Both the position numbers and the translations under genes were made by a program. Below are positions 1 through 5,196 of a stretch of DNA of 30,451 nucleotides, one piece after another. Every line of letters starts with the position of its first letter. Positions within the stretch are counted from its first letter, which is position 1. Source of the stretch: a virus (taxonomy: Duplodnaviria; Heunggongvirae; Uroviricota; Caudoviricetes); IMG/VR virus record IMGVR_UViG_3300025898_000004, positions 1 to 30,451 of that record; one strand, 5' to 3'. Below the pieces are notes generated by a model, which saw only the letters and a program-made list of their open reading frames with translations, made no database searches and was not told where the DNA came from.

Positions 1-15
1 TTGTATCCCCCTCTT

Positions 16-209
16 TTGGGGACCCGGAACTCATTCACACGAAGCAAGATCGGGGCAGGCCCGTACGCGACCCGTTTCAGCTATCCCGTGGCCGTCTAGA
101 ACAGCCTTGGGAATCAACGCCTATCCGCTCGAAGACGTGGCTGCCGCATCGTAACGGACCCTTTGGGTATCGCAGGGTCACCGGGCATTCTGTCTTAGGC
201 GGTCCCCAA
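16..209 (-). ncRNA. Putative ~195 nt structured RNA of unknown family
   Basis: Closed by TTGGGGACC (16-24) / GGTCCCCAA (201-209); no credible ORF; lies directly downstream of tRNA-Ser. Confidence 0.35.
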
Positions 210-211
210 CG

Positions 212-292
212 CAGAGGGTAAAGGAATCGAACCCTCAGGTATTACCCTGGCCCGGACTTCGAAACCGGTTTGCCGCCACGGCGCTACCCTCC
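212..292 (-). tRNA. tRNA-Ser(CGA), long variable arm
   Basis: Acceptor GGAGGGT/ACCCTCT, G73, anticodon loop TTCGAAG, variable hairpin CAGG/CCTG, T-loop TTCGATT. Confidence 0.8.
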
Positions 293-354
293 ATTGGTGT
301 GCCCCCACAACCGCCACAGTCAGTGAGGGCACTACGGACCTATAGGAGGTCCAG

Positions 355-425
355 AGCGGGTACGGGGAATCGAACCCCGGCCTGTTGCTTGGAAGGCACT
401 AGTTCTACCATTAAACTATACCCGC
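355..425 (-). tRNA. tRNA-Gly(TCC)
   Basis: GCGGGTA acceptor, loop CTTCCAA, T-loop TTCGATT, U73; anticodon stem only 3 bp. Confidence 0.88.
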
Positions 426-436
426 ATTGCCTTGCG

Positions 437-508
437 CTGACCTAGTAGGATTCGAACCTACATCTAACTCGTTAACAGCGAGTCGCTTTGCCGTTAAGCT
501 ATAGGCCA
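437..508 (-). tRNA. tRNA-Asn(GTT)
   Basis: Canonical cloverleaf, ACTCG-CTGTTAA-CGAGT. Confidence 0.93.
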
Positions 509-515
509 CCGAACA

Positions 516-935
516 CTAACTCACAACATCAGTGTAGCCGATTTCCTTGGCGCGATACAACCGCTTCGCCTTAACGCAAAGAGAACACTTACATTTCGTT
601 TCCTGGTAACAACGCATCGTACCGTGTTGTTGCGGTGACGTGTTCTTGTTGTATCCGCCGCCAGCTTCCCGATTTGCTACCGTCTTTGCCCTGTGGCAAT
701 CGTGACAAAGGAGCTGACACTTCTTCAACTCGACTAGGATTGAATCCCATGAACGATCCAGGTCCTTGCCGCTCATCCTGAAACTCGCACTGCCGGGGGC
801 CTTGTGATCAAACTCCAGGTTGTTCCTCGAACCGCAAGTCACACACTTGCCGCCCAGCATCTCCACCAGGATGGATCGACGTTCGGTACGTCGGGCTGCC
901 ATGTACGACCGCATGTATTCATTGCTACTCTTCAT
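516..935 (-). CDS. HNH endonuclease (free-standing, within tRNA array)
   Basis: CVTCG...LEFDH...CQLLCHDCHRAKT motif; C-terminal HGT..CY..C.C..C motif. Confidence 0.88.
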   Translation of the reverse strand: MKSSNEYMRSYMAARRTERRSILVEMLGGKCVTCGSRNNLEFDHKAPGSASFRMSGKDLDRSWDSILVELKKCQLLCHDCHRAKTVANREAGGGYNKNTSPQQHGTMRCYQETKCKCSLCVKAKRLYRAKEIGYTDVVS

Positions 936-1078
936 GCGGTAATCTTAACATAGTCGCTCTGCCACATGCAAGGGTGGAAGCCCGATAGACGTTCTAGACC
1001 TATCACGCCCGCGTCCTGTGTGCGCACACTTAGGGGTCGAACTCCGGCACTCGGGCCAACATGCCGGATGGTATAACG

Positions 1079-1174
1079 AGAGGCGGCTTACCATTAGCCG
1101 ACAGCTAGTCACCCCGTGGCGTTTGTTTTACCACGTGCTTTCACCAGCTGGATTCGAACCAACATTACCCCTCT
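1079..1174 (-). ncRNA. Permuted tRNA-like element (T arm precedes D arm), no Y-type stem
   Basis: AGAGG-ggtaat-GTTGG TTCGAAT CCAGC ... GGCT AATGGTA AGCC-g-CCTCT; terminal AGAGG/CCTCT pair at anticodon-stem position. Confidence 0.5.
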
Positions 1175-1176
1175 AG

Positions 1177-1252
1177 TGGCAGCGGTGGGATTTGAACCCA
1201 CGATCTCCGACTTATGAGGACGGCGAGGACGACCGAACTCCTCTACGCTGCT
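1177..1252 (-). tRNA. tRNA-Met(CAT), initiator-like
   Basis: Loop CTCATAA, A1:C72 mismatch, T-loop TTCAAAT. Confidence 0.85.
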
Positions 1253-1257
1253 CTAGA

Positions 1258-1313
1258 TGGCACACGGGCAGTGGTGCTTGCGCCCCTAAAGGGTACTGAC
1301 ATGCCCGTGTGCC
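1258..1313 (-). ncRNA. Small hairpin RNA, paralog of 1881-1949
   Basis: GGCACACGGG/CCCGTGTGCC stem followed by ATCTAG, same flank as 1881-1949 element. Confidence 0.4.
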
Positions 1314-1415: not shown

Positions 1416-1565
1416 TGACACCGAGAACCAGTCGATACAGGTCTTTCAAGTAGGACCGCCGCTCTACCAACTGAGCTACAGGCGCAGGGAGAGCGCCCGC
1501 CAGGAATCGAACCTGGGCCAGCGGTTTGGATTCCAGAAGTAACCCACATCTTCGCATCGGTGTCA
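1416..1565 (-). ncRNA. Y RNA/YrlA-like RNA A (T arm-closed acceptor stem-D arm)
   Basis: TGACACCGA/TCGGTGTCA terminal stem; GATGCGAAG..GGGTTACTTC; T arm CCAGG TTCGATT CCTGG; closed stem CGGGCGC/GCGCCTG; D arm GCTC AGTTGGTA GAGC; TGGTTCTC. Confidence 0.75.
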
Positions 1566-1571
1566 GCTAGC

Positions 1572-1642
1572 GGTTCCGAGAACCAAATAACCCAGGCTAT
1601 TTTCATTGCGATTGAAGTATCCCGGGTCTTCGCATCGGAACC
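1572..1642 (-). ncRNA. Minimal Y RNA-like RNA B (no tRNA-like domain)
   Basis: GGTTCCGA/TCGGAACC stem; GATGCGAAG-ACCC-GGGATACTTC; TGGTTCTC; AU-rich loop. Confidence 0.65.
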
Positions 1643-1644
1643 AG

Positions 1645-1716
1645 TCGGGGAGGGGAGAATCGAACTCCCGGCATCCTGTACCCAAAACAGGCACTCTACC
1701 ACTGAGCTACGCCCCG
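1645..1716 (-). tRNA. tRNA-Pro(TGG)
   Basis: CGGGGCG acceptor, CCTGT-TTTGGGT-ACAGG. Confidence 0.93.
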
Positions 1717-1866
1717 GTCACCAATATCATGCCGGCTCAGCCGGCGTTTCTTGCCCACGAACCGTAGGTACCGGAACGGATCCCGGTCCCGTCGGCCGTT
1801 GTCCTTGAACTTGTGCGCCTTGCACATGGCGCACCCTTTCCACCGCCTGTGTGGGGAGTGGGCCAT
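1696..1866 (-). CDS. Small basic hypothetical protein (56 aa, MAHSPHRRWKGCAMCKAHKF...)
   Basis: AGGAG RBS; CxxCxxH motif; below the ORF-track cutoff; 3' end overlaps tRNA-Pro. Confidence 0.6.
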   Translation of the reverse strand: MAHSPHRRWKGCAMCKAHKFKDNGRRDRDPFRYLRFVGKKRRLSRHDIGDRGVAQW

Positions 1867-1880
1867 TGTTATCTCCTAGA

Positions 1881-1949
1881 TGGTGCACACGGTCCCCGGT
1901 GCGCTTTTCCGGGTGGCTGGACGTCCACTGTTAGCAACCTACCGTGTGC
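1881..1949 (-). ncRNA. tRNA-like three-way junction ending in ACCA
   Basis: 9-bp GCACACGGT/ACCGTGTGC stem + ACCA; two internal 5-bp hairpins. Confidence 0.45.
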
Positions 1950-1952
1950 CCG

Positions 1953-2024
1953 CGCTCGCGACGGGGATCGAACCCGCGACCTTCGCCCTGACAAGGCGTT
2001 GCGCTACCACTGCGCCACGCAAGC
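1953..2024 (-). tRNA. tRNA-Asp(GTC)
   Basis: Cloverleaf, loop TTGTCAG, G73. Confidence 0.9.
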
Positions 2025-2182
2025 ATGATCGGCGGGGCAGCGCGCCTCTCAGAGACAGCCGCCGTGAAGCGGGTTACCATCCCCGCCGGTACCAACGGAT
2101 ACCGTGCCGACTTCGCACACCCGGACCCCGTCGGCTAGGGATAACTGTCCGGTCAGACATGCGGTCCGTTGGTTGACTGAAG

Positions 2183-2343
2183 ACCGGAAAGAGGTGGCCC
2201 GAGAACCAATCGGCACAGGACACGTAGTGCTCTGCCAATTGAGCTACCGGCCCATAGGTGGACCGGATAGGATTCGAACCTACAACCACTCGATTAATAG
2301 TCGAAGTAACCCACGCCTTCGCATCGGGTCACCTCTTTCCGGT
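2183..2343 (-). ncRNA. Y RNA/YrlA-like RNA C containing a complete circularly permuted tRNA-Asn-like cloverleaf (anticodon ATT)
   Basis: ~20-bp terminal stem ACCGGAAAGAGGTG../..CACCTCTTTCCGGT; conserved motif; order AC arm, T arm, acceptor 3' CCGGTCC, loop ACCTAT, acceptor 5' GGGCCGG, D arm. Confidence 0.8.
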
Positions 2344-2345
2344 GA

Positions 2346-2469
2346 TCCCCGCGAGAACCAAGTAAGCCAGGTTGGGCAGTGCATTTTCGCGGATTTGAAC
2401 CACGATCTTACTTCACTTATGGAGTGAAATAATTTATCCGAAGTAACCCGACTCTTCGCATCGCGGAGA
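2346..2469 (-). ncRNA. Y RNA-like RNA D carrying AC arm (CAT) and T arm only
   Basis: TCTCCGCGA/TCGCGGGGA stem; conserved motif; TTCAC-TCCATAA-GTGAA; CGTGG TTCAAAT CCGCG. Confidence 0.68.
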
Positions 2470-2480
2470 GTAAAGCTTGG

Positions 2481-2620
2481 CCTCACGAGAACCAATCGAA
2501 TCAGGTTAGTAGACCCGGGACTCGAACCCGGAACCTCTCCCCTCATTGGGGAGCGCTCTACCGATTGAGCTAGTCCGCTGAGTTGGTAGCGGAAGTAACC
2601 CAATCCTTCGCATCGTGAGG
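2481..2620 (-). ncRNA. Y RNA-like RNA E enclosing a normal-order tRNA-like cloverleaf
   Basis: CCTCACGA/TCGTGAGG stem; conserved motif; internal AGCGGAC..GCTC AATCGGTA GAGC..CTCCC CAATGAG GGGAG..CCGGG TTCGAGT CCCGG GTCTACT. Confidence 0.72.
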
Positions 2621-2723
2621 TGTTCAAGTTTGGAATTGTCAAAGAAAGTCGCCGCACTCAAGGGCATTCAGTTGACGGGACGCGGAACGTGTTCTGCCAC
2701 AAAAGGGCCTGTCCGCATCCCCG

Positions 2724-2797
2724 TTGCGCAACCTGGAATTGAACCAGGGTCCGCCTCATTATCAGTGAGGTGCTCCAACCGACTGAGCTATTGCGCA
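2724..2797 (-). tRNA. tRNA-Ile(GAT)
   Basis: Canonical cloverleaf, CCTCA-CTGATAA-TGAGG. Confidence 0.93.
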
Positions 2798-2942
2798 TCG
2801 TGTATGTAATTGTAACCGGGCGGTCAAGGGGATTCCATGGATCCCTTTGACGACCCGAGGGAGACTTTTCGGGCACAGCAGCCTAAATCCCAATGCACTT
2901 CCAGCCGGACCAACCGGTGATCAACTCCGATCGGGTACCACG

Positions 2943-3015
2943 TGGGAAGGGACGGTTTCGAACCGCCGGCCTCTCCCTTTTCAGGGGAGCGCTCTACCAA
3001 CTGAGCTACCGACCC
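2943..3015 (-). tRNA. tRNA-Phe(GAA)
   Basis: CTCCC-CTGAAAA-GGGAG; two mismatches in acceptor stem. Confidence 0.87.
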
Positions 3016-3025
3016 ATGTTGTGCG

Positions 3026-3098
3026 TGAACCCGGCAGGTCTCGAACCTGCGACCCCCAACTTAAGAGGATGGTGCTCTACCAGCTGAGCTACGAGTCC
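3026..3098 (-). tRNA. tRNA-Lys(CTT)
   Basis: Loop CTCTTAA; U30:U40 mismatch in anticodon stem. Confidence 0.9.
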
Positions 3099-3112
3099 AT
3101 GTAATTGTGACG

Positions 3113-3184
3113 CTTCCCGTCTAGGATTCGAACCTAGATCCCCGGAACCAAAATCCAGTCTCTTGCCGATTAGAGCAACGGGAA
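3113..3184 (-). tRNA. tRNA-Gln(TTG)
   Basis: TTCCCGT/ACGGGAA acceptor, loop TTTTGGT. Confidence 0.9.
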
Positions 3185-3188
3185 CCGG

Positions 3189-3262
3189 TGCCCCCGGTAG
3201 GATTCGAACCCACGACCCGCCGGGTAAAAGCCGGCTGCTGCTTCCATCTGAGCTACGAAGGC
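3189..3262 (-). tRNA. tRNA-Lys(TTT)
   Basis: GCCGG-CTTTTAC-CCGGC, canonical T arm. Confidence 0.9.
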
Positions 3263-3366
3263 ATTCAGTTGTGAAAGACGGGGTGGTCCGATGGTTTTCA
3301 CCACCTACCCGAGACAGACGTACCCCTAGCGTGGGCAGTCGTACCCGCCTCCTCGGTCTCTCCGCG

Positions 3367-3438
3367 CTGCCCACCTAGGACTCGAACCTAGATTACCTGA
3401 ATCAGAGTCAGGATTCCTGCCGTTTGAAAGAGCGGGCA
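3367..3438 (-). tRNA. tRNA-Gln(CTG)
   Basis: CCTGA-CTCTGAT-TCAGG. Confidence 0.9.
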
Positions 3439-3514
3439 TTAAGTTGTATCCGGCGTTCAGGGGCTAGCAACCCTGAACTTTATGCGTGCGCAACGGCAGC
3501 CGGATCTACCAACG

Positions 3515-3589
3515 AGCCCCCAGTAGGATTCGAACCCACGACCCTCCGCTTACAAGGCGGACGCTCTGGCCAGACTGAGCTATAAGGGC
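3515..3589 (-). tRNA. tRNA-Thr(TGT)
   Basis: TCCGC-CTTGTAA-GCGGA. Confidence 0.93.
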
Positions 3590-3605
3590 ATTATTCAGTT
3601 AAAAG

Positions 3606-3676
3606 GACGACCGACGGGAGTTGAACCCGCATCGCTGTAGCCATACCAGTGCACTACCTATTATGCTACGGCCGTC
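3606..3676 (-). tRNA. tRNA-His-like with shortened/degenerate anticodon arm
   Basis: 8-bp acceptor GACGGCCG/CGGTCGTC (G-1:C73 His hallmark), intact D and T arms, 15-nt AC arm CTGGTATGGCTACAG. Confidence 0.55.
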
Positions 3677-3717
3677 ACCCCGAGGGGCAAGTCATTTTGT
3701 TGAAGTTGTGTCGTGCG

Positions 3718-3790
3718 TGGACCTGACAGGACTTGAACCCGCCACCCCCTGTGTGCAAAACAGGTGCTCTACCCGATGAGCTACAGGCCC
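3718..3790 (-). tRNA. tRNA-Ala(TGC)
   Basis: Loop TTTGCAC; G3:U70 identity pair present. Confidence 0.93.
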
Positions 3791-3991
3791 AGAGATACGG
3801 TACAGGCGCAGGAGTTTCAACGCGGAAAGGTAGCACGAGAAAACCGCTCCACACCTTCGCTCCGCCCCGGGACTAACCTCGATGTGTGCTTCCCCTTCCG
3901 GTTTGGTGACGTTCACGCCCGTATCGCATTAAGTTGTGGGTGAGGCCAACACGGTGGGTGTCGCGCATGACAACACCGCGCTGACCTCTCG

Positions 3992-4064
3992 TAGGGATTG
4001 AGGGAGTCGAACCCCCGACCCGCTCTTTGTAAGAGAGCCGCTCGTCCCGCTGAGCTAAATCCCT
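3992..4064 (-). tRNA. tRNA-Val(TAC)
   Basis: GCTCT-CTTACAA-AGAGC. Confidence 0.93.
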
Positions 4065-4083
4065 ATATGAAATCCCTATAAGG

Positions 4084-4157
4084 CTTCACTGAGAACCGGA
4101 GAGCACCAGGTGTCATTTCGCCAATTGAAGTAACCCAGCGCGTTCGCATCAGTGAAG
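4084..4157 (-). ncRNA. Minimal Y RNA-like RNA F (first element after the RNA-island promoter)
   Basis: CTTCACTGA/TCAGTGAAG stem; GATGCGAAC-GCGCT-GGGTTACTTC; CGGTTCTC. Confidence 0.62.
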
Positions 4158-4221: not shown

Positions 4222-4250
4222 ACATTACCCGGCCGATCCTGGGGTGTCAA
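4222..4250 (-). promoter_or_regulatory. Housekeeping-sigma-type promoter driving the tRNA/Y RNA island
   Basis: TTGACA-N17-TAATGT. Confidence 0.8.
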
Positions 4251-4602: not shown

Positions 4603-5196
4603 TCAGACACCGCGCAACCGCCCCAAACCCGCGCGCTGGGCGAACACCTCATGCCGGGCCGCCTCACACCGCATCCACACCGCCCGATCCCAATACGCAT
4701 CCGTCAACGCGTTGTGCGCCGAGTGCTGCGCCGGCAACTTCGGGTGCCCGCACTCCTCCCACCGCTGCCGCAACTCGTGCGTGAACATCGGGATCCCCGT
4801 CGGAAGCCCCGACATCGGCCCGAACAGCTGGGCCAACGCCACATGGTCGTACGCGGCGAACCACGCCCACAACTCCACCGGCTCCCCCGGCGACAACAGG
4901 AACGTCGCCACGTCCGCCGCGATCTGTGTTCGGGGCTTCACGTTCCCGAAGTCCTTGTGCGACCGGTCCCACTGCCACCACCGCTCACCGCCCCGGCTCT
5001 CCTTGTGCCCGGGAAGGTGCACCATCACGTTGTCCGGCAACCACGGATGCGCCATCGCATCCAACATCACCTCAACATCGTTCACCACGGCGTAATACGT
5101 GTGGCCCTCTTCATCCACCAGACCGATCGAGATCAACCGAATCGTGCGGCCGTCGTCGATGAACTCCGTGTCATAAAAAACGCGCCGTGCACTCAC
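4603..5196 (-). CDS. DEDDh 3'-5' exoribonuclease, Rv2179c/RNase AS-like
   Basis: FYDTEFIDDGRTIRLISIGLV; WAWFAAYDHVALAQLFGPM..LP.GIPMFTHELRQ; HNALTDA. Confidence 0.9.
   Translation of the reverse strand: MSARRVFYDTEFIDDGRTIRLISIGLVDEEGHTYYAVVNDVEVMLDAMAHPWLPDNVMVHLPGHKESRGGERWWQWDRSHKDFGNVKPRTQIAADVATFLLSPGEPVELWAWFAAYDHVALAQLFGPMSGLPTGIPMFTHELRQRWEECGHPKLPAQHSAHNALTDAYWDRAVWMRCEAARHEVFAQRAGLGRLRGV

What the first reader, a model, noticed from the sequence alone, without database searches (positions are those of the whole stretch)
1416..4157. Array of six Y RNA/YrlA-like RNAs with interchangeable tRNA-like payloads inside a phage tRNA cluster
Seen: six elements (1416-1565, 1572-1642, 2183-2343, 2346-2469, 2481-2620, 4084-4157) share GATGCGAA(G/C)-N4/5-GGG(T/A)TACTTC at the 5' end and (T/C)GGTTCTC at the 3' end. 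The flanking terminal stems and the N4/5-GGG stem differ in sequence between copies but stay paired in all six (covariation). The interiors differ: two permuted cloverleaves, one AC+T-arm half tRNA, one normal-order cloverleaf and two empty loops. Established: bacterial Y RNAs (YrlA) bind Ro60/Rsr (TROVE) via a terminal helix with a CGAA core, mimic tRNA with a loop-closed acceptor stem, and are linked to RtcB repair and PNPase decay; some occur in phages. Inference: this is an expanded, modular Y RNA family, a common Ro-binding handle with swappable decoy domains. It could sequester or retarget host Rsr/PNPase, or act as decoys for tRNA-cleaving defences. I am not aware of a described six-member array with this payload diversity.
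Basis: partly seen in the sequence, partly recalled or inferred. Interest (0 to 1): 0.92.

Follow-up and report, generated by a model that had tools for sequence, protein, structure and literature searches.

The report
Six phage Y RNAs for Ro60
A soil actinophage carries six small RNA genes among its tRNA genes that share one conserved two-helix handle and display different tRNA parts; they are almost certainly Y RNAs, partners of the phage's own Ro60 protein, so they belong to a known RNA class but form an unusually large and varied set.

Summary
Six minus-strand elements share GAUGCGAA(G/C)-N4/5-GGG(U/A)UACUUC and YGGUUCUC (6 matches, 0 expected), and both variable stems pair only with their own partner. 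The handle covaries across 17 short elements from 10 phage contigs (96.5% of cells paired, 0/500 shuffles).

The Y RNA reading is well supported.
- The record encodes a Ro60 (TROVE+VWA) protein on the same strand.
- All 13 other viral contigs with the exact motif carry a Ro60 gene.
- A handle model gave 125 hits in 80 further Ro60 loci, all on the Ro60 strand and nearly all within about 1.5 kb upstream of the gene.
- The same motif lies upstream of chromosomal Ro60 genes in 46 bacterial genomes.

E1 and E3 are YrlA-type permuted tRNA mimics. E4 has an anticodon-like hairpin plus a T arm. E2 and E6 carry small conserved hairpins, not empty loops. E5 nests a normal-order tRNA body, the only such case among 207 elements.

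Arrays of 4-8 occur in other phages, including cultured Streptomyces phage BRock, so six is not unique. This scan has also found similar phage arrays on other DNA. Rfam's YrlA threshold misses all of them. Expression, Ro60 binding and function remain untested.

The parts
4222..4250 (-). Promoter-like site TTGACA-N17-TAATGT, 65 nt upstream of E6. It is the only copy of the phage's repeated promoter consensus upstream of the RNA cluster.
   Evidence: 20 matches in the window against 0.05 expected; this one lies directly 5' of E6. Function is inferred, not shown.
4084..4157 (-). E6: short Y RNA (74 nt), the first RNA of the cluster. It has the handle plus a small hairpin with loop AAUUGGC; its 5' motif has CGAA-C-G and a 5-nt spacer.
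   Evidence: Handle model R1 scores 60 bits, E 8e-13. The same apical sequence recurs in L102, L057, L084 and L006.
2481..2620 (-). E5: handle enclosing a normal-order tRNA body (D arm, anticodon-type arm with loop CAAUGAG lacking U33, 5-nt variable loop, T arm). The acceptor stem has one C-A mismatch and there is no CCA.
   Evidence: ARAGORN and Rfam call a tRNA inside it (2507-2579, 50.5 bits). The body is closest to the phage's tRNA-Leu(CAA) and tRNA-Phe. It is the only nested tRNA among 207 elements. An alternative leader hairpin is preferred by 10 kcal/mol.
2346..2469 (-). E4: handle plus an anticodon-arm-like hairpin (loop UCCAUAA or CCAUA) and a T arm; there is no D arm and no acceptor stem.
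   Evidence: R1 scores 48.3 bits, E 8e-10, over the full model. T arm CGUGG-UUCAAAU-CCGCG. The T-only class is common: 30 of 144 elements.
2183..2343 (-). E3: YrlA-type Y RNA with a 20-bp terminal stem. It is a complete circularly permuted tRNA-Asn-like body: anticodon-type arm (loop CUAUUAA), 5-nt variable loop, T arm, 7-bp acceptor hairpin with loop ACCUAU, UA, D arm.
   Evidence: Rfam YrlA scores 39.2 bits, model positions 24-84. BLAST of the payload hits the 3' part of real tRNA-Asn genes and tRNA-Asn|tRNA-Trp junctions in other phages. The ortholog alignment shows covariation in S1, S2, the hairpin and the T arm.
1571..1643 (-). E2: short Y RNA (73 nt). It has the handle plus a 4-bp hairpin with 7-nt loop AUCGCAA (U33-, A37- and A38-like positions).
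   Evidence: R1 scores 65.6 bits, E 3e-14.
1416..1565 (-). E1: YrlA-type Y RNA. The handle leads through a large internal loop to a 4-bp closing stem, then T arm, 7-bp acceptor hairpin and D arm (the D arm is identical to that of the phage tRNA-Phe).
   Evidence: Rfam YrlA scores 34.4 bits, model positions 23-85.

Best explanation
The six elements are phage-encoded Y RNAs, the non-coding partners of the ring-shaped RNA-binding protein Ro60.

Proposed mechanism (all steps inferred):
1. They are probably transcribed with about 30 tRNAs as one long minus-strand precursor from the promoter-like site at 4222-4250, and are released by host tRNA-processing and other endonucleases.
2. Each folds into the same handle: terminal stem S1, an asymmetric internal loop carrying the conserved 5'-strand motif UGCGAAG, inner stem S2, and the YUAY-type motif UUAC.
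3. The phage's own Ro60 (634-aa TROVE+VWA ORF further down the same strand) binds the handle.
4. The apical module differs between copies: a whole permuted tRNA (E1, E3), a whole normal-order tRNA body (E5), an anticodon-type arm plus T arm (E4), or a single small hairpin (E2, E6).
5. By analogy with characterised Y RNAs, this module is the effector-binding part. It either tethers Ro60 to tRNA-recognising proteins or to a 3'-5' exoribonuclease such as host PNPase, or it gates access to the Ro60 cavity.
6. A set of six would give the phage several differently addressed Ro60 particles during infection, most plausibly for surveillance, repair or turnover of tRNA-like RNAs.

What is shown: the sequence anatomy, covariation of the structure, and genetic linkage to Ro60.
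For: Motif and stems:
- 6 matches against 0 expected, with cognate-only pairing of S1 and S2.
- Handle covariation across 17 short elements from 10 contigs: 96.5% of cells paired, 85 cells changed on both sides against 26.6 in shuffles, 0/500 shuffles as high, and slid controls at 35-49% paired.

The Ro60 gene:
- Pfam TROVE 61 bits plus VWA_2 at 23.4 bits, below its 27-bit cut-off; it lies on the minus strand.
- Homologous to the Thermus phage phiLo Ro60 structures 9KOP/9L5Y, E 8e-23.
- 35-39% identical to 'Ro-like RNA binding protein' genes of Streptomyces, Gordonia and Arthrobacter phages.

Linkage of the handle to Ro60:
- A DNA-pattern search alone found 13 other viral contigs. 12 of the 13 fetched loci have a Ro60 homolog beside the array, and the thirteenth contig has one too.
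- Handle model R1, run on 80 independently fetched Ro60 loci, gave 125 hits at E<=0.01. All are on the Ro60 strand and nearly all lie within about 1.5 kb upstream of the gene. By my hand count of the table, 73 of the 76 loci that have upstream sequence are hit.
- The same motif lies 180-480 nt upstream of, and on the same strand as (48/48), chromosomal Ro60 genes in 46 bacterial genomes, mostly actinobacteria.

Match to YrlA:
- The E1 and E3 cores align to the T arm, acceptor hairpin and D arm of Rfam YrlA, E 1e-7 and 3e-6.
- The conserved CGAA-N0-1-G and YUAY features named by Chen et al. 2014 are present (PMC4201824).
Against:
- Rfam YrlA scores (39.2 and 34.4 bits) are below the gathering score of 69, and four of the six elements have no YrlA-type core.
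- In the record as deposited the Ro60 gene is about 85 kb away. Proximity (about 3.7 kb from E1) depends on reading the record as circular or over-assembled, which rests on similarity between its two ends.
- The 5' motif reads UGCGAAG, not the published GNCGAAG.
- For elements outside the window, S1 was located partly by complementarity, so S1 covariation there is biased. S2, and both stems of the six window copies, are not.
- No RtcB, Rnl2-type RNA ligase or CCA-adding enzyme is encoded, so a repair role has no support from gene content.
Confidence: 0.85

Rival explanations
1. The handle is a processing or insulating signal of the polycistronic tRNA transcript, for example an RNase III or RNase E entry site or a folding insulator. 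It would have no dedicated protein partner, and the payloads would be decaying tRNA fragments.
For: The elements are interleaved with tRNAs, separated from each other by only 2-12 nt, and E3 has a 20-bp stem of the kind RNase III cuts. No expression or binding data exist.
Against: The handle tracks Ro60 genes, not tRNA clusters. 125 of 125 model hits are on the Ro60 strand just upstream of the gene. It also occurs before chromosomal Ro60 genes with no tRNA cluster called in the bacterial loci scanned. Conservation of the single-stranded 5' motif and of UUACUUC across lineages of 39-70% G+C fits a protein-binding site better than a cleavage helix.
Confidence: 0.04
2. The long elements are unconventional tRNA genes (circularly permuted in E1 and E3, leader/trailer-clamped in E5). 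They would be matured into working or regulatory tRNAs, with the handle acting only as a maturation scaffold.
For: - E3 has all four arms, a 7-bp acceptor stem and a loop starting ACC.
- Hairpins that follow UUACUU carry a canonical anticodon-loop signature: C32 77%, U33 85%, A37 72%, A38 81%, n=53. In 38 of 43 T-arm-bearing elements they lie 1-6 nt (mostly 4-5) before the T arm.
- E5 is called a tRNA at 50.5 bits.
- M. smegmatis YrlA is cut by RNase P and receives CCA in vivo (PMC4201824).
Against: - The acceptor stems are closed by loops.
- E3 has A34 (AUU), E5 lacks U33, and E5's acceptor stem is outcompeted by a leader hairpin.
- Short elements with the same handle have no tRNA body.
- No RNA ligase or CCA enzyme is encoded in the phage.
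- The phage already encodes regular Asn, Phe, Leu and Met tRNAs.
Confidence: 0.04
3. The RNAs act mainly without Ro60, as free decoys or inhibitors of host tRNA-cleaving defence nucleases or tRNA-modifying enzymes. Linkage to Ro60 would then reflect only shared regulation.
For: The payloads are tRNA parts with varied anticodon-like loops. Phage tRNA clusters are often explained as a counter to tRNA depletion (general knowledge, not tested here).
Against: The part conserved across all lineages is the handle, not the payload. The handle co-occurs with Ro60 in every assessable contig.
Confidence: 0.05

Closest known systems
YrlA, the tRNA-mimicking Y RNA of bacteria and mycobacteriophages (Rfam RF02553; Chen et al. 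2014, PMC4201824; Wang et al. 2018, bioRxiv 10.1101/312249)
   Same: - Two-module build: a Ro60-binding stem formed by the 5' and 3' ends with a conserved 5'-strand CGAA motif and a YUAY motif.
- An apical tRNA-like domain in the order T arm, loop-closed acceptor stem, D arm (E1, E3).
- Encoded on the Ro60 strand; at least two Y RNAs per genome.
- The same handle lies before chromosomal Ro60 genes of 46 bacterial genomes, mostly actinobacteria.
   Different: - Six copies scattered through a tRNA cluster rather than one or two beside the gene.
- Four copies lack the YrlA core.
- Scores are below the Rfam gathering score.
- In E3 and many phage relatives, the hairpin that Chen et al. call the V arm has the size, loop signature and sequence of an anticodon arm.
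YrlB / Yrn2-type short Y RNAs (S. Typhimurium, M. smegmatis, D. radiodurans; PMC4201824)
   Same: These are second, shorter Ro60-bound RNAs from the same locus: a hairpin with a small loop, and in M. smegmatis a possible T arm. E2 and E6 (hairpin only) and E4 (T arm) fit this description.
   Different: No sequence comparison with the published YrlB RNAs was possible here. The E6-type loop AAUUGGC and the E2-type anticodon-like loop are conserved classes across phages.
Thermus phage phiLo Ro60 with Yrl1 and Yrl2 (NAR 2025, PMC12135203)
   Same: Phage-encoded Ro60 with Y RNA-like genes upstream of it and a CGAA motif in an internal bulge between stems. There, binding was shown in vitro and ternary complexes formed with host PNPase. 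The window's Ro60 is homologous (E 8e-23).
   Different: phiLo has two RNAs without described tRNA-like payloads. Here there are six, with tRNA-derived payloads, in an actinophage.
Unannotated four-element array before the Ro-like gene of Streptomyces phage BRock (KX925554)
   Same: Same handle (GAUGCG-N-AG ... UUACUU), the same mix of two YrlA-type, one short and one intermediate element, and a Ro gene inside a tRNA cluster. Its fourth element shares acceptor and D-arm sequence with E3.
   Different: The BRock array is compact and directly abuts the Ro gene. Its 3' motif is UUUUUCUA rather than UGGUUCUC. No element there holds a nested tRNA.

Membership tests
Y RNA (Ro60-associated ncRNA) | Long stem formed by pairing of the 5' and 3' ends | tested here: met
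   Cognate-only S1 pairing in all six copies. Across 17 elements, helix 1 is 99.3% paired and 7 of its 9 pairs show changes on both sides.
Y RNA (Ro60-associated ncRNA) | Conserved 5'-strand motif at the Ro60 site (bacterial GNCGAAN0-1G) | tested here: inconclusive
   All six have CGAA followed by G or CG, but the first position is U (UGCGAAG), so 6 of 7 positions match. The identical variant precedes chromosomal Ro60 genes in 46 bacterial genomes.
Y RNA (Ro60-associated ncRNA) | Encoded close to a Ro60 gene and on the same strand | tested here: met
   Same strand: yes. Distance: about 3.7-6.4 kb if the record is circular or over-assembled, otherwise about 85 kb. In relatives the linkage is strict.
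Y RNA (Ro60-associated ncRNA) | Physically bound by Ro60, and dependent on it for accumulation | not testable with these tools
   This needs EMSA or immunoprecipitation.
Y RNA (Ro60-associated ncRNA) | Expressed as a discrete small RNA | not testable with these tools
YrlA (Rfam RF02553) | Score at or above the Rfam gathering score (69 bits) | tested here: not met
   E3 scores 39.2 and E1 34.4 bits, covering only model positions 23-85. The model also reports nothing for BRock, VanLee and seven Ro60-linked loci of named actinobacteria carrying this handle, so it is insensitive for this lineage.
YrlA (Rfam RF02553) | tRNA-like domain in the order T arm, loop-closed acceptor stem, D arm | tested here: met
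   Met for E1 and E3. Not met for E2, E4, E5 and E6, which are therefore Y RNAs of other types.
YrlA (Rfam RF02553) | Conserved YUAY at the start of the V region | tested here: met
   UUAC in five copies and AUAC in E2. UAC is invariant in 17 of 17 aligned short elements.
Functional circularly permuted tRNA genes | Maturation to a tRNA with free acceptor ends and a decoding anticodon loop | not testable with these tools
   The sequence argues against it: loop-closed acceptors, A34 in E3, and no RNA ligase gene in the genome.

The most novel reading that the evidence does not exclude
The anticodon-type hairpins and tRNA bodies may be address labels rather than generic tRNA mimicry. Each Y RNA in an array would present a particular tRNA identity: Asn-like in E3, Met-like CAU in E4, a Leu/Phe-like body in E5, and GUU and GCU most often in relatives. 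It would thereby direct or shield the phage Ro60 particle with respect to one tRNA-recognising enzyme or defence nuclease, or capture one tRNA by loop-loop pairing. Arrays would then be phage-specific repertoires that evolve by capturing pieces of neighbouring tRNA genes. E5 would be a recent capture, and permuted bodies would arise from the junctions of tandem tRNA genes.
Probability: 0.15. Interest if true: 0.8.

Novelty: new variant of a known kind. Interest (0 to 1): 0.5.

Why it matters

This phage and its relatives show that the module is exchangeable. One conserved handle carries a whole permuted tRNA, a whole normal tRNA body, an anticodon arm plus T arm, or a single hairpin. The hairpin called the 'V arm' in the literature often has the signature of a true anticodon arm, with varied triplets.

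Because equivalent arrays exist in cultured actinophages such as BRock and VanLee, the open question of which partner the tRNA-like module recruits becomes testable by phage genetics and Ro60 pull-downs.

Practically, genome annotation misses all of these RNAs. Rfam's threshold is not reached, and tRNA finders mis-call pieces of E3 and E5 as tRNA-Asn(att) and tRNA-His(atg).

Tried and rejected
- **Rfam at gathering score:** no YrlA hit in the window, in BRock or VanLee, or in actinobacterial Ro60 loci. I read this as model insensitivity, not absence.
- **Rv2179c-like exoribonuclease:** a 3'-5' exoribonuclease gene (4603-5196, minus strand) sits just upstream of the RNA cluster. It is present in only 5 of 98 phage Ro60 neighbourhoods and 0 of 80 bacterial ones, so I did not adopt it as the general effector.
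- **Other nested normal-order tRNAs:** two regex 'D before T' calls and four 'D only' calls turned out to be false or permuted, and ARAGORN found no payload-internal tRNA outside the window.
- **Minimum-free-energy folding:** it recovers S1 and S2 in five of six elements, but not the cloverleaf-like payload folds of E3 and E5. Two-dimensional energies cannot decide these.
- **Bacterial pattern scan:** about 69 chance matches are expected for 17 fixed bases in 596 Gb. Only the 46 Ro60-linked loci among the 80 fetched (of 99 matches) are counted as real.
- **Reviews:** PMC10870794 and PMC6047535 are not held.


Full report
**What is in the sequence.** The window is the first 30,451 bases of a 94,451-base IMG/VR viral record rated 100% complete by CheckV. 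All six elements lie on the minus strand, inside a cluster of tRNA genes.
- The pattern GATGCGAAS-N4/5-GGGWTACTTC occurs six times against 0.00 expected and nowhere else in the record.
- Each copy ends with YGGTTCTC.
- I anchored positions on these two motifs only and compared each 5' strand with every 3' strand.
- The terminal stem S1 gives 7, 7, 3 (then one mismatch and 14 more pairs), 7, 6 and 7 contiguous pairs with its own partner, and 0-4 with foreign partners.
- The inner stem S2 is always fully paired with its own partner.
- Minimum-free-energy folding recovers S1 and S2 in five of the six.

Three amendments apply:
- E2 runs 1571-1643.
- E2 and E6 are not empty loops.
- The ARAGORN calls tRNA-Asn(att) and tRNA-His(atg) are pieces of E3 and E5.

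**The handle is a conserved, covarying structure.**
- An exact search for the 5' motif found 13 other viral contigs. They hold tandem sets of two to eight similar elements.
- I aligned seventeen short elements from ten contigs. RNAalifold predicts S1 and S2, and 12 of the 16 pairs show compensatory changes.
- On that structure 96.5% of cells are paired against 64.7% in shuffles. 85 cells are changed on both sides against 26.6. No shuffle of 500 reaches the observed values, and sliding the partner by 1-3 columns drops pairing to 35-49%.
- Caveat: outside the window I located S1 partly by complementarity, so S1 is biased there. S2 is not, and neither stem is biased in the six window copies.
- As in published Y RNAs, the 5' strand is conserved (UGCG-N-AG, then UACUUC) while the 3' motif drifts between lineages (UGGUUCUC, AGUUCAC, UUUUUCUA).

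**The partner gene.**
- The record encodes a 634-aa minus-strand ORF with a TROVE domain (61 bits) and a VWA_2 match at 23.4 bits, below its 27-bit cut-off.
- It is homologous to the solved Ro60 of Thermus phage phiLo (E 8e-23).
- It is 35-39% identical to 'Ro-like RNA binding protein' genes of Streptomyces, Gordonia and Arthrobacter phages.
- Sixteen more tRNA genes lie between this gene and the end of the record.
- The last 115 bases of the record are identical to window 1176-1290, and 93299-93588 is 90% identical to window 1-292. The record therefore seems to run past its own start through a variant copy.
- Read that way, the minus strand carries, in order: the promoter-like site at 4222-4250, E6, tRNAs, E5-E4-E3, tRNAs, E2-E1, about 20 tRNAs, and then Ro60. 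E1 would lie about 3.7 kb upstream of the Ro60 start. This order is an inference from the end similarity.

**Linkage of the handle to Ro60.** This is the strongest evidence for the Y RNA reading.
- Twelve of the 13 fetched motif loci carry a Ro60 homolog next to the array, and the record behind the thirteenth (L011) has one too.
- I built a covariance model (R1) from the 17 short elements. I ran it on 80 Ro60 loci fetched independently with a Ro60 protein alignment, out of 366 viral contigs that encode a relative.
- It gave 125 hits at E<=0.01. All are on the Ro60 strand and nearly all lie within about 1.5 kb upstream of the gene. By my hand count of that table, 73 of the 76 loci that have upstream sequence are hit.
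- The same motif was found in 99 bacterial and archaeal genomes, where about 69 chance matches are expected. Of the 80 loci fetched, 46 have a Ro60 homolog within the locus, and the motif is on the Ro60 strand in 48 of 48 cases, 180-480 nt upstream.
- Most of these 46 are actinobacteria (Lentzea, Streptomyces, Nocardioides, Kitasatospora). They hold one to four model hits per locus.
- The handle is therefore the ordinary actinobacterial-type Ro60-binding module, shared by hosts and phages.

**Relation to the curated family.**
- Rfam YrlA (RF02553) matches only the cores of E3 (39.2 bits) and E1 (34.4 bits), at model positions 23-85. These positions are the T arm, the loop-closed acceptor stem and the D arm. 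The gathering score is 69.
- The model consensus outside the core (GA-AUGC ... GGG-AACUA on the 5' side) has the same layout as the window's handle but does not align.
- The model also reports nothing in BRock, VanLee or seven Ro60-linked loci of named actinobacteria with this handle. The sub-threshold score therefore says more about the model than about membership.
- Chen et al. 2014 define YrlA by a GNCGAAN0-1G motif, a YUAY that begins the 'V' region, and T, AS and D stem-loops (PMC4201824).
- Here CGAA-N0-1-G and UUAC are present, but the first G of the motif is U.

**The payloads.**
- **E1** is a Salmonella-like YrlA: a 4-bp closing stem, T arm, 7-bp acceptor hairpin and D arm.
- **E3** has an extra 5-bp hairpin with loop CUAUUAA, five nucleotides before the T arm.
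- **E4** has a similar hairpin plus a T arm only.
- **E2** has a 4-bp hairpin with loop AUCGCAA.
- **E6** has a hairpin with loop AAUUGGC that recurs almost identically in L102, L057, L084 and L006.
- **E5** holds a D arm, an anticodon-type arm, a 5-nt variable loop and a T arm in normal order. This body is closest to the phage's own tRNA-Leu(CAA) and tRNA-Phe. Its loop lacks U33. Its acceptor stem has a C-A mismatch and competes with a leader hairpin that is favoured by 10 kcal/mol.

A regex census found 207 elements, 202 of them outside the window. It gave four results:
- The classes recur in the 80 Ro60 loci: short hairpin 57, permuted T-then-D 36, T arm only 30.
- Only E5 contains a nested tRNA call.
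- Where a hairpin with a 7-nt loop follows UACUU, the loop has the anticodon-loop signature: C32 77%, U33 85%, A37 72%, A38 81%, with variable middle triplets (n=53).
- In 38 of the 43 such elements that also have a T arm, this hairpin ends 1-6 nt (mostly 4-5) before it, as in class I tRNAs.

Further support for reading this hairpin as an anticodon arm:
- It covaries in an alignment of 16 E3-type elements.
- BLAST of E3's payload matches the anticodon arm through the T arm of real tRNA-Asn genes. It also matches tRNA-Asn|tRNA-Trp junctions in other phages.
- The stem-loop that the literature calls the V arm is therefore, at least in these phage RNAs, best read as an anticodon arm.
- The permuted bodies plausibly arose from junctions of tandem tRNA genes. 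In line with this, the Rfam YrlA model also 'hits' the junction of two adjacent tRNA genes at 2966-3069.

**How it most likely works.**
- Established for other systems: Ro60 binds the conserved 5' strand of the terminal helix. The other end of a Y RNA binds an effector such as PNPase or gates the Ro60 cavity. YrlA modules are substrates of tRNA enzymes, and M. smegmatis YrlA, with a 7-bp acceptor stem, is cut by RNase P and receives CCA (PMC4201824; bioRxiv 10.1101/312249; PMC12135203).
- By homology, I infer that the six RNAs are cut from the tRNA precursor, bind the phage Ro60 through the handle, and present six different tRNA-derived modules.
- E1 and E3 have 7-bp acceptor hairpins and may be nicked by RNase P.
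- The purpose is not shown. Possibilities are tRNA quality control, nuclease tethering, or interference with tRNA-directed host defences.
- The phage has no RtcB, Rnl2 ligase or CCA enzyme.
- An Rv2179c-like 3'-5' exoribonuclease gene lies just upstream of the cluster, but it is not generally linked to Ro60.

**Novelty and verdict.**
- Phage Ro60 genes with Y RNAs are published: 22 phages in Chen et al. 2014, and two Yrl RNAs in phiLo in 2025. The kind is therefore known.
- Arrays of four to eight occur in other contigs; L011 has eight. Cultured phage BRock has four unannotated elements between tRNA-Asn and its Ro gene.
- Earlier notes of this scan report similar arrays with other handles on other DNA. 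An earlier agent working on the Ro60 end of this same genome predicted that its Y RNAs lay further up the tRNA array.
- Not found in the papers I could search:
  - the dispersal of six Y RNAs through a tRNA cluster
  - the normal-order tRNA body in E5
  - the anticodon-arm signature of the 'V' hairpin
  - the failure of the Rfam threshold for the whole actinobacterial and actinophage lineage
- I rate the finding a new variant of a known kind, of moderate interest.

Noticed in passing
window 1-1290 and G000 93299-94451: The two ends of the viral record are partly alike. The last 115 bases equal window 1176-1290 (100%), 94257-94305 matches 1027-1076 (96%), and 93299-93588 matches 1-292 (90%), with unrelated sequence in between. 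This looks like an assembly that ran past its start through a strain variant, or a diverged terminal duplication of a tRNA block (tRNA-Met is identical in both copies).
   Followed up: partly
window 4603-5196 (-): A 197-aa ORF matches the Rv2179c-like 3'-5' exoribonuclease domain (45.3 bits, cut-off 27). It lies directly upstream of the promoter of the Y RNA/tRNA cluster. Homologs are near Ro60 in only 5 of 98 phage loci; one of them (L048) is immediately downstream of Ro60.
   Followed up: partly
window 4222-29653: There are twenty sites with TTGACA, a 17-bp spacer and TAnnnT (18 on the minus strand), against 0.05 expected. Most have the extended form TTGACATCCC. One drives the RNA cluster.
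   Followed up: partly
window 212-293 (-): There is a weak tRNA-Sec-model hit (26.8 bits, below threshold) that ARAGORN does not call. By the 90%-identical copy at the other end of the record, it corresponds to tRNA-Ser(cga), so it may be a long-arm tRNA-Ser variant or a decayed copy.
   Followed up: no
window 2966-3069 (-): The Rfam YrlA model aligns end to end (38.3 bits) across the junction of two adjacent ordinary tRNA genes (tRNA-Lys and tRNA-Phe). This shows that tandem tRNA junctions mimic the permuted YrlA layout. It is a source of false positives and a hint at how such modules arise.
   Followed up: partly
window 1696-1866 (-) and 516-935 (-): Two ORFs lie inside the RNA cluster. One is a 56-aa basic, Cys-containing ORF with a Shine-Dalgarno-like GGAGA that runs into tRNA-Pro and has no Pfam match. 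The other is a 139-aa ORF with a weak HNH endonuclease match (19.6 bits, below cut-off).
   Followed up: partly
L019 8344-8992 (Gordonia phage VanLee): Four elements upstream of the Ro-like gene keep GGUUACUUC but replace UGCGAAG with a GCCC(A/G)G-type motif. One is annotated as tRNA-Arg(tct). This is a diverged handle variant that my model barely detects (17.6 bits).
   Followed up: no
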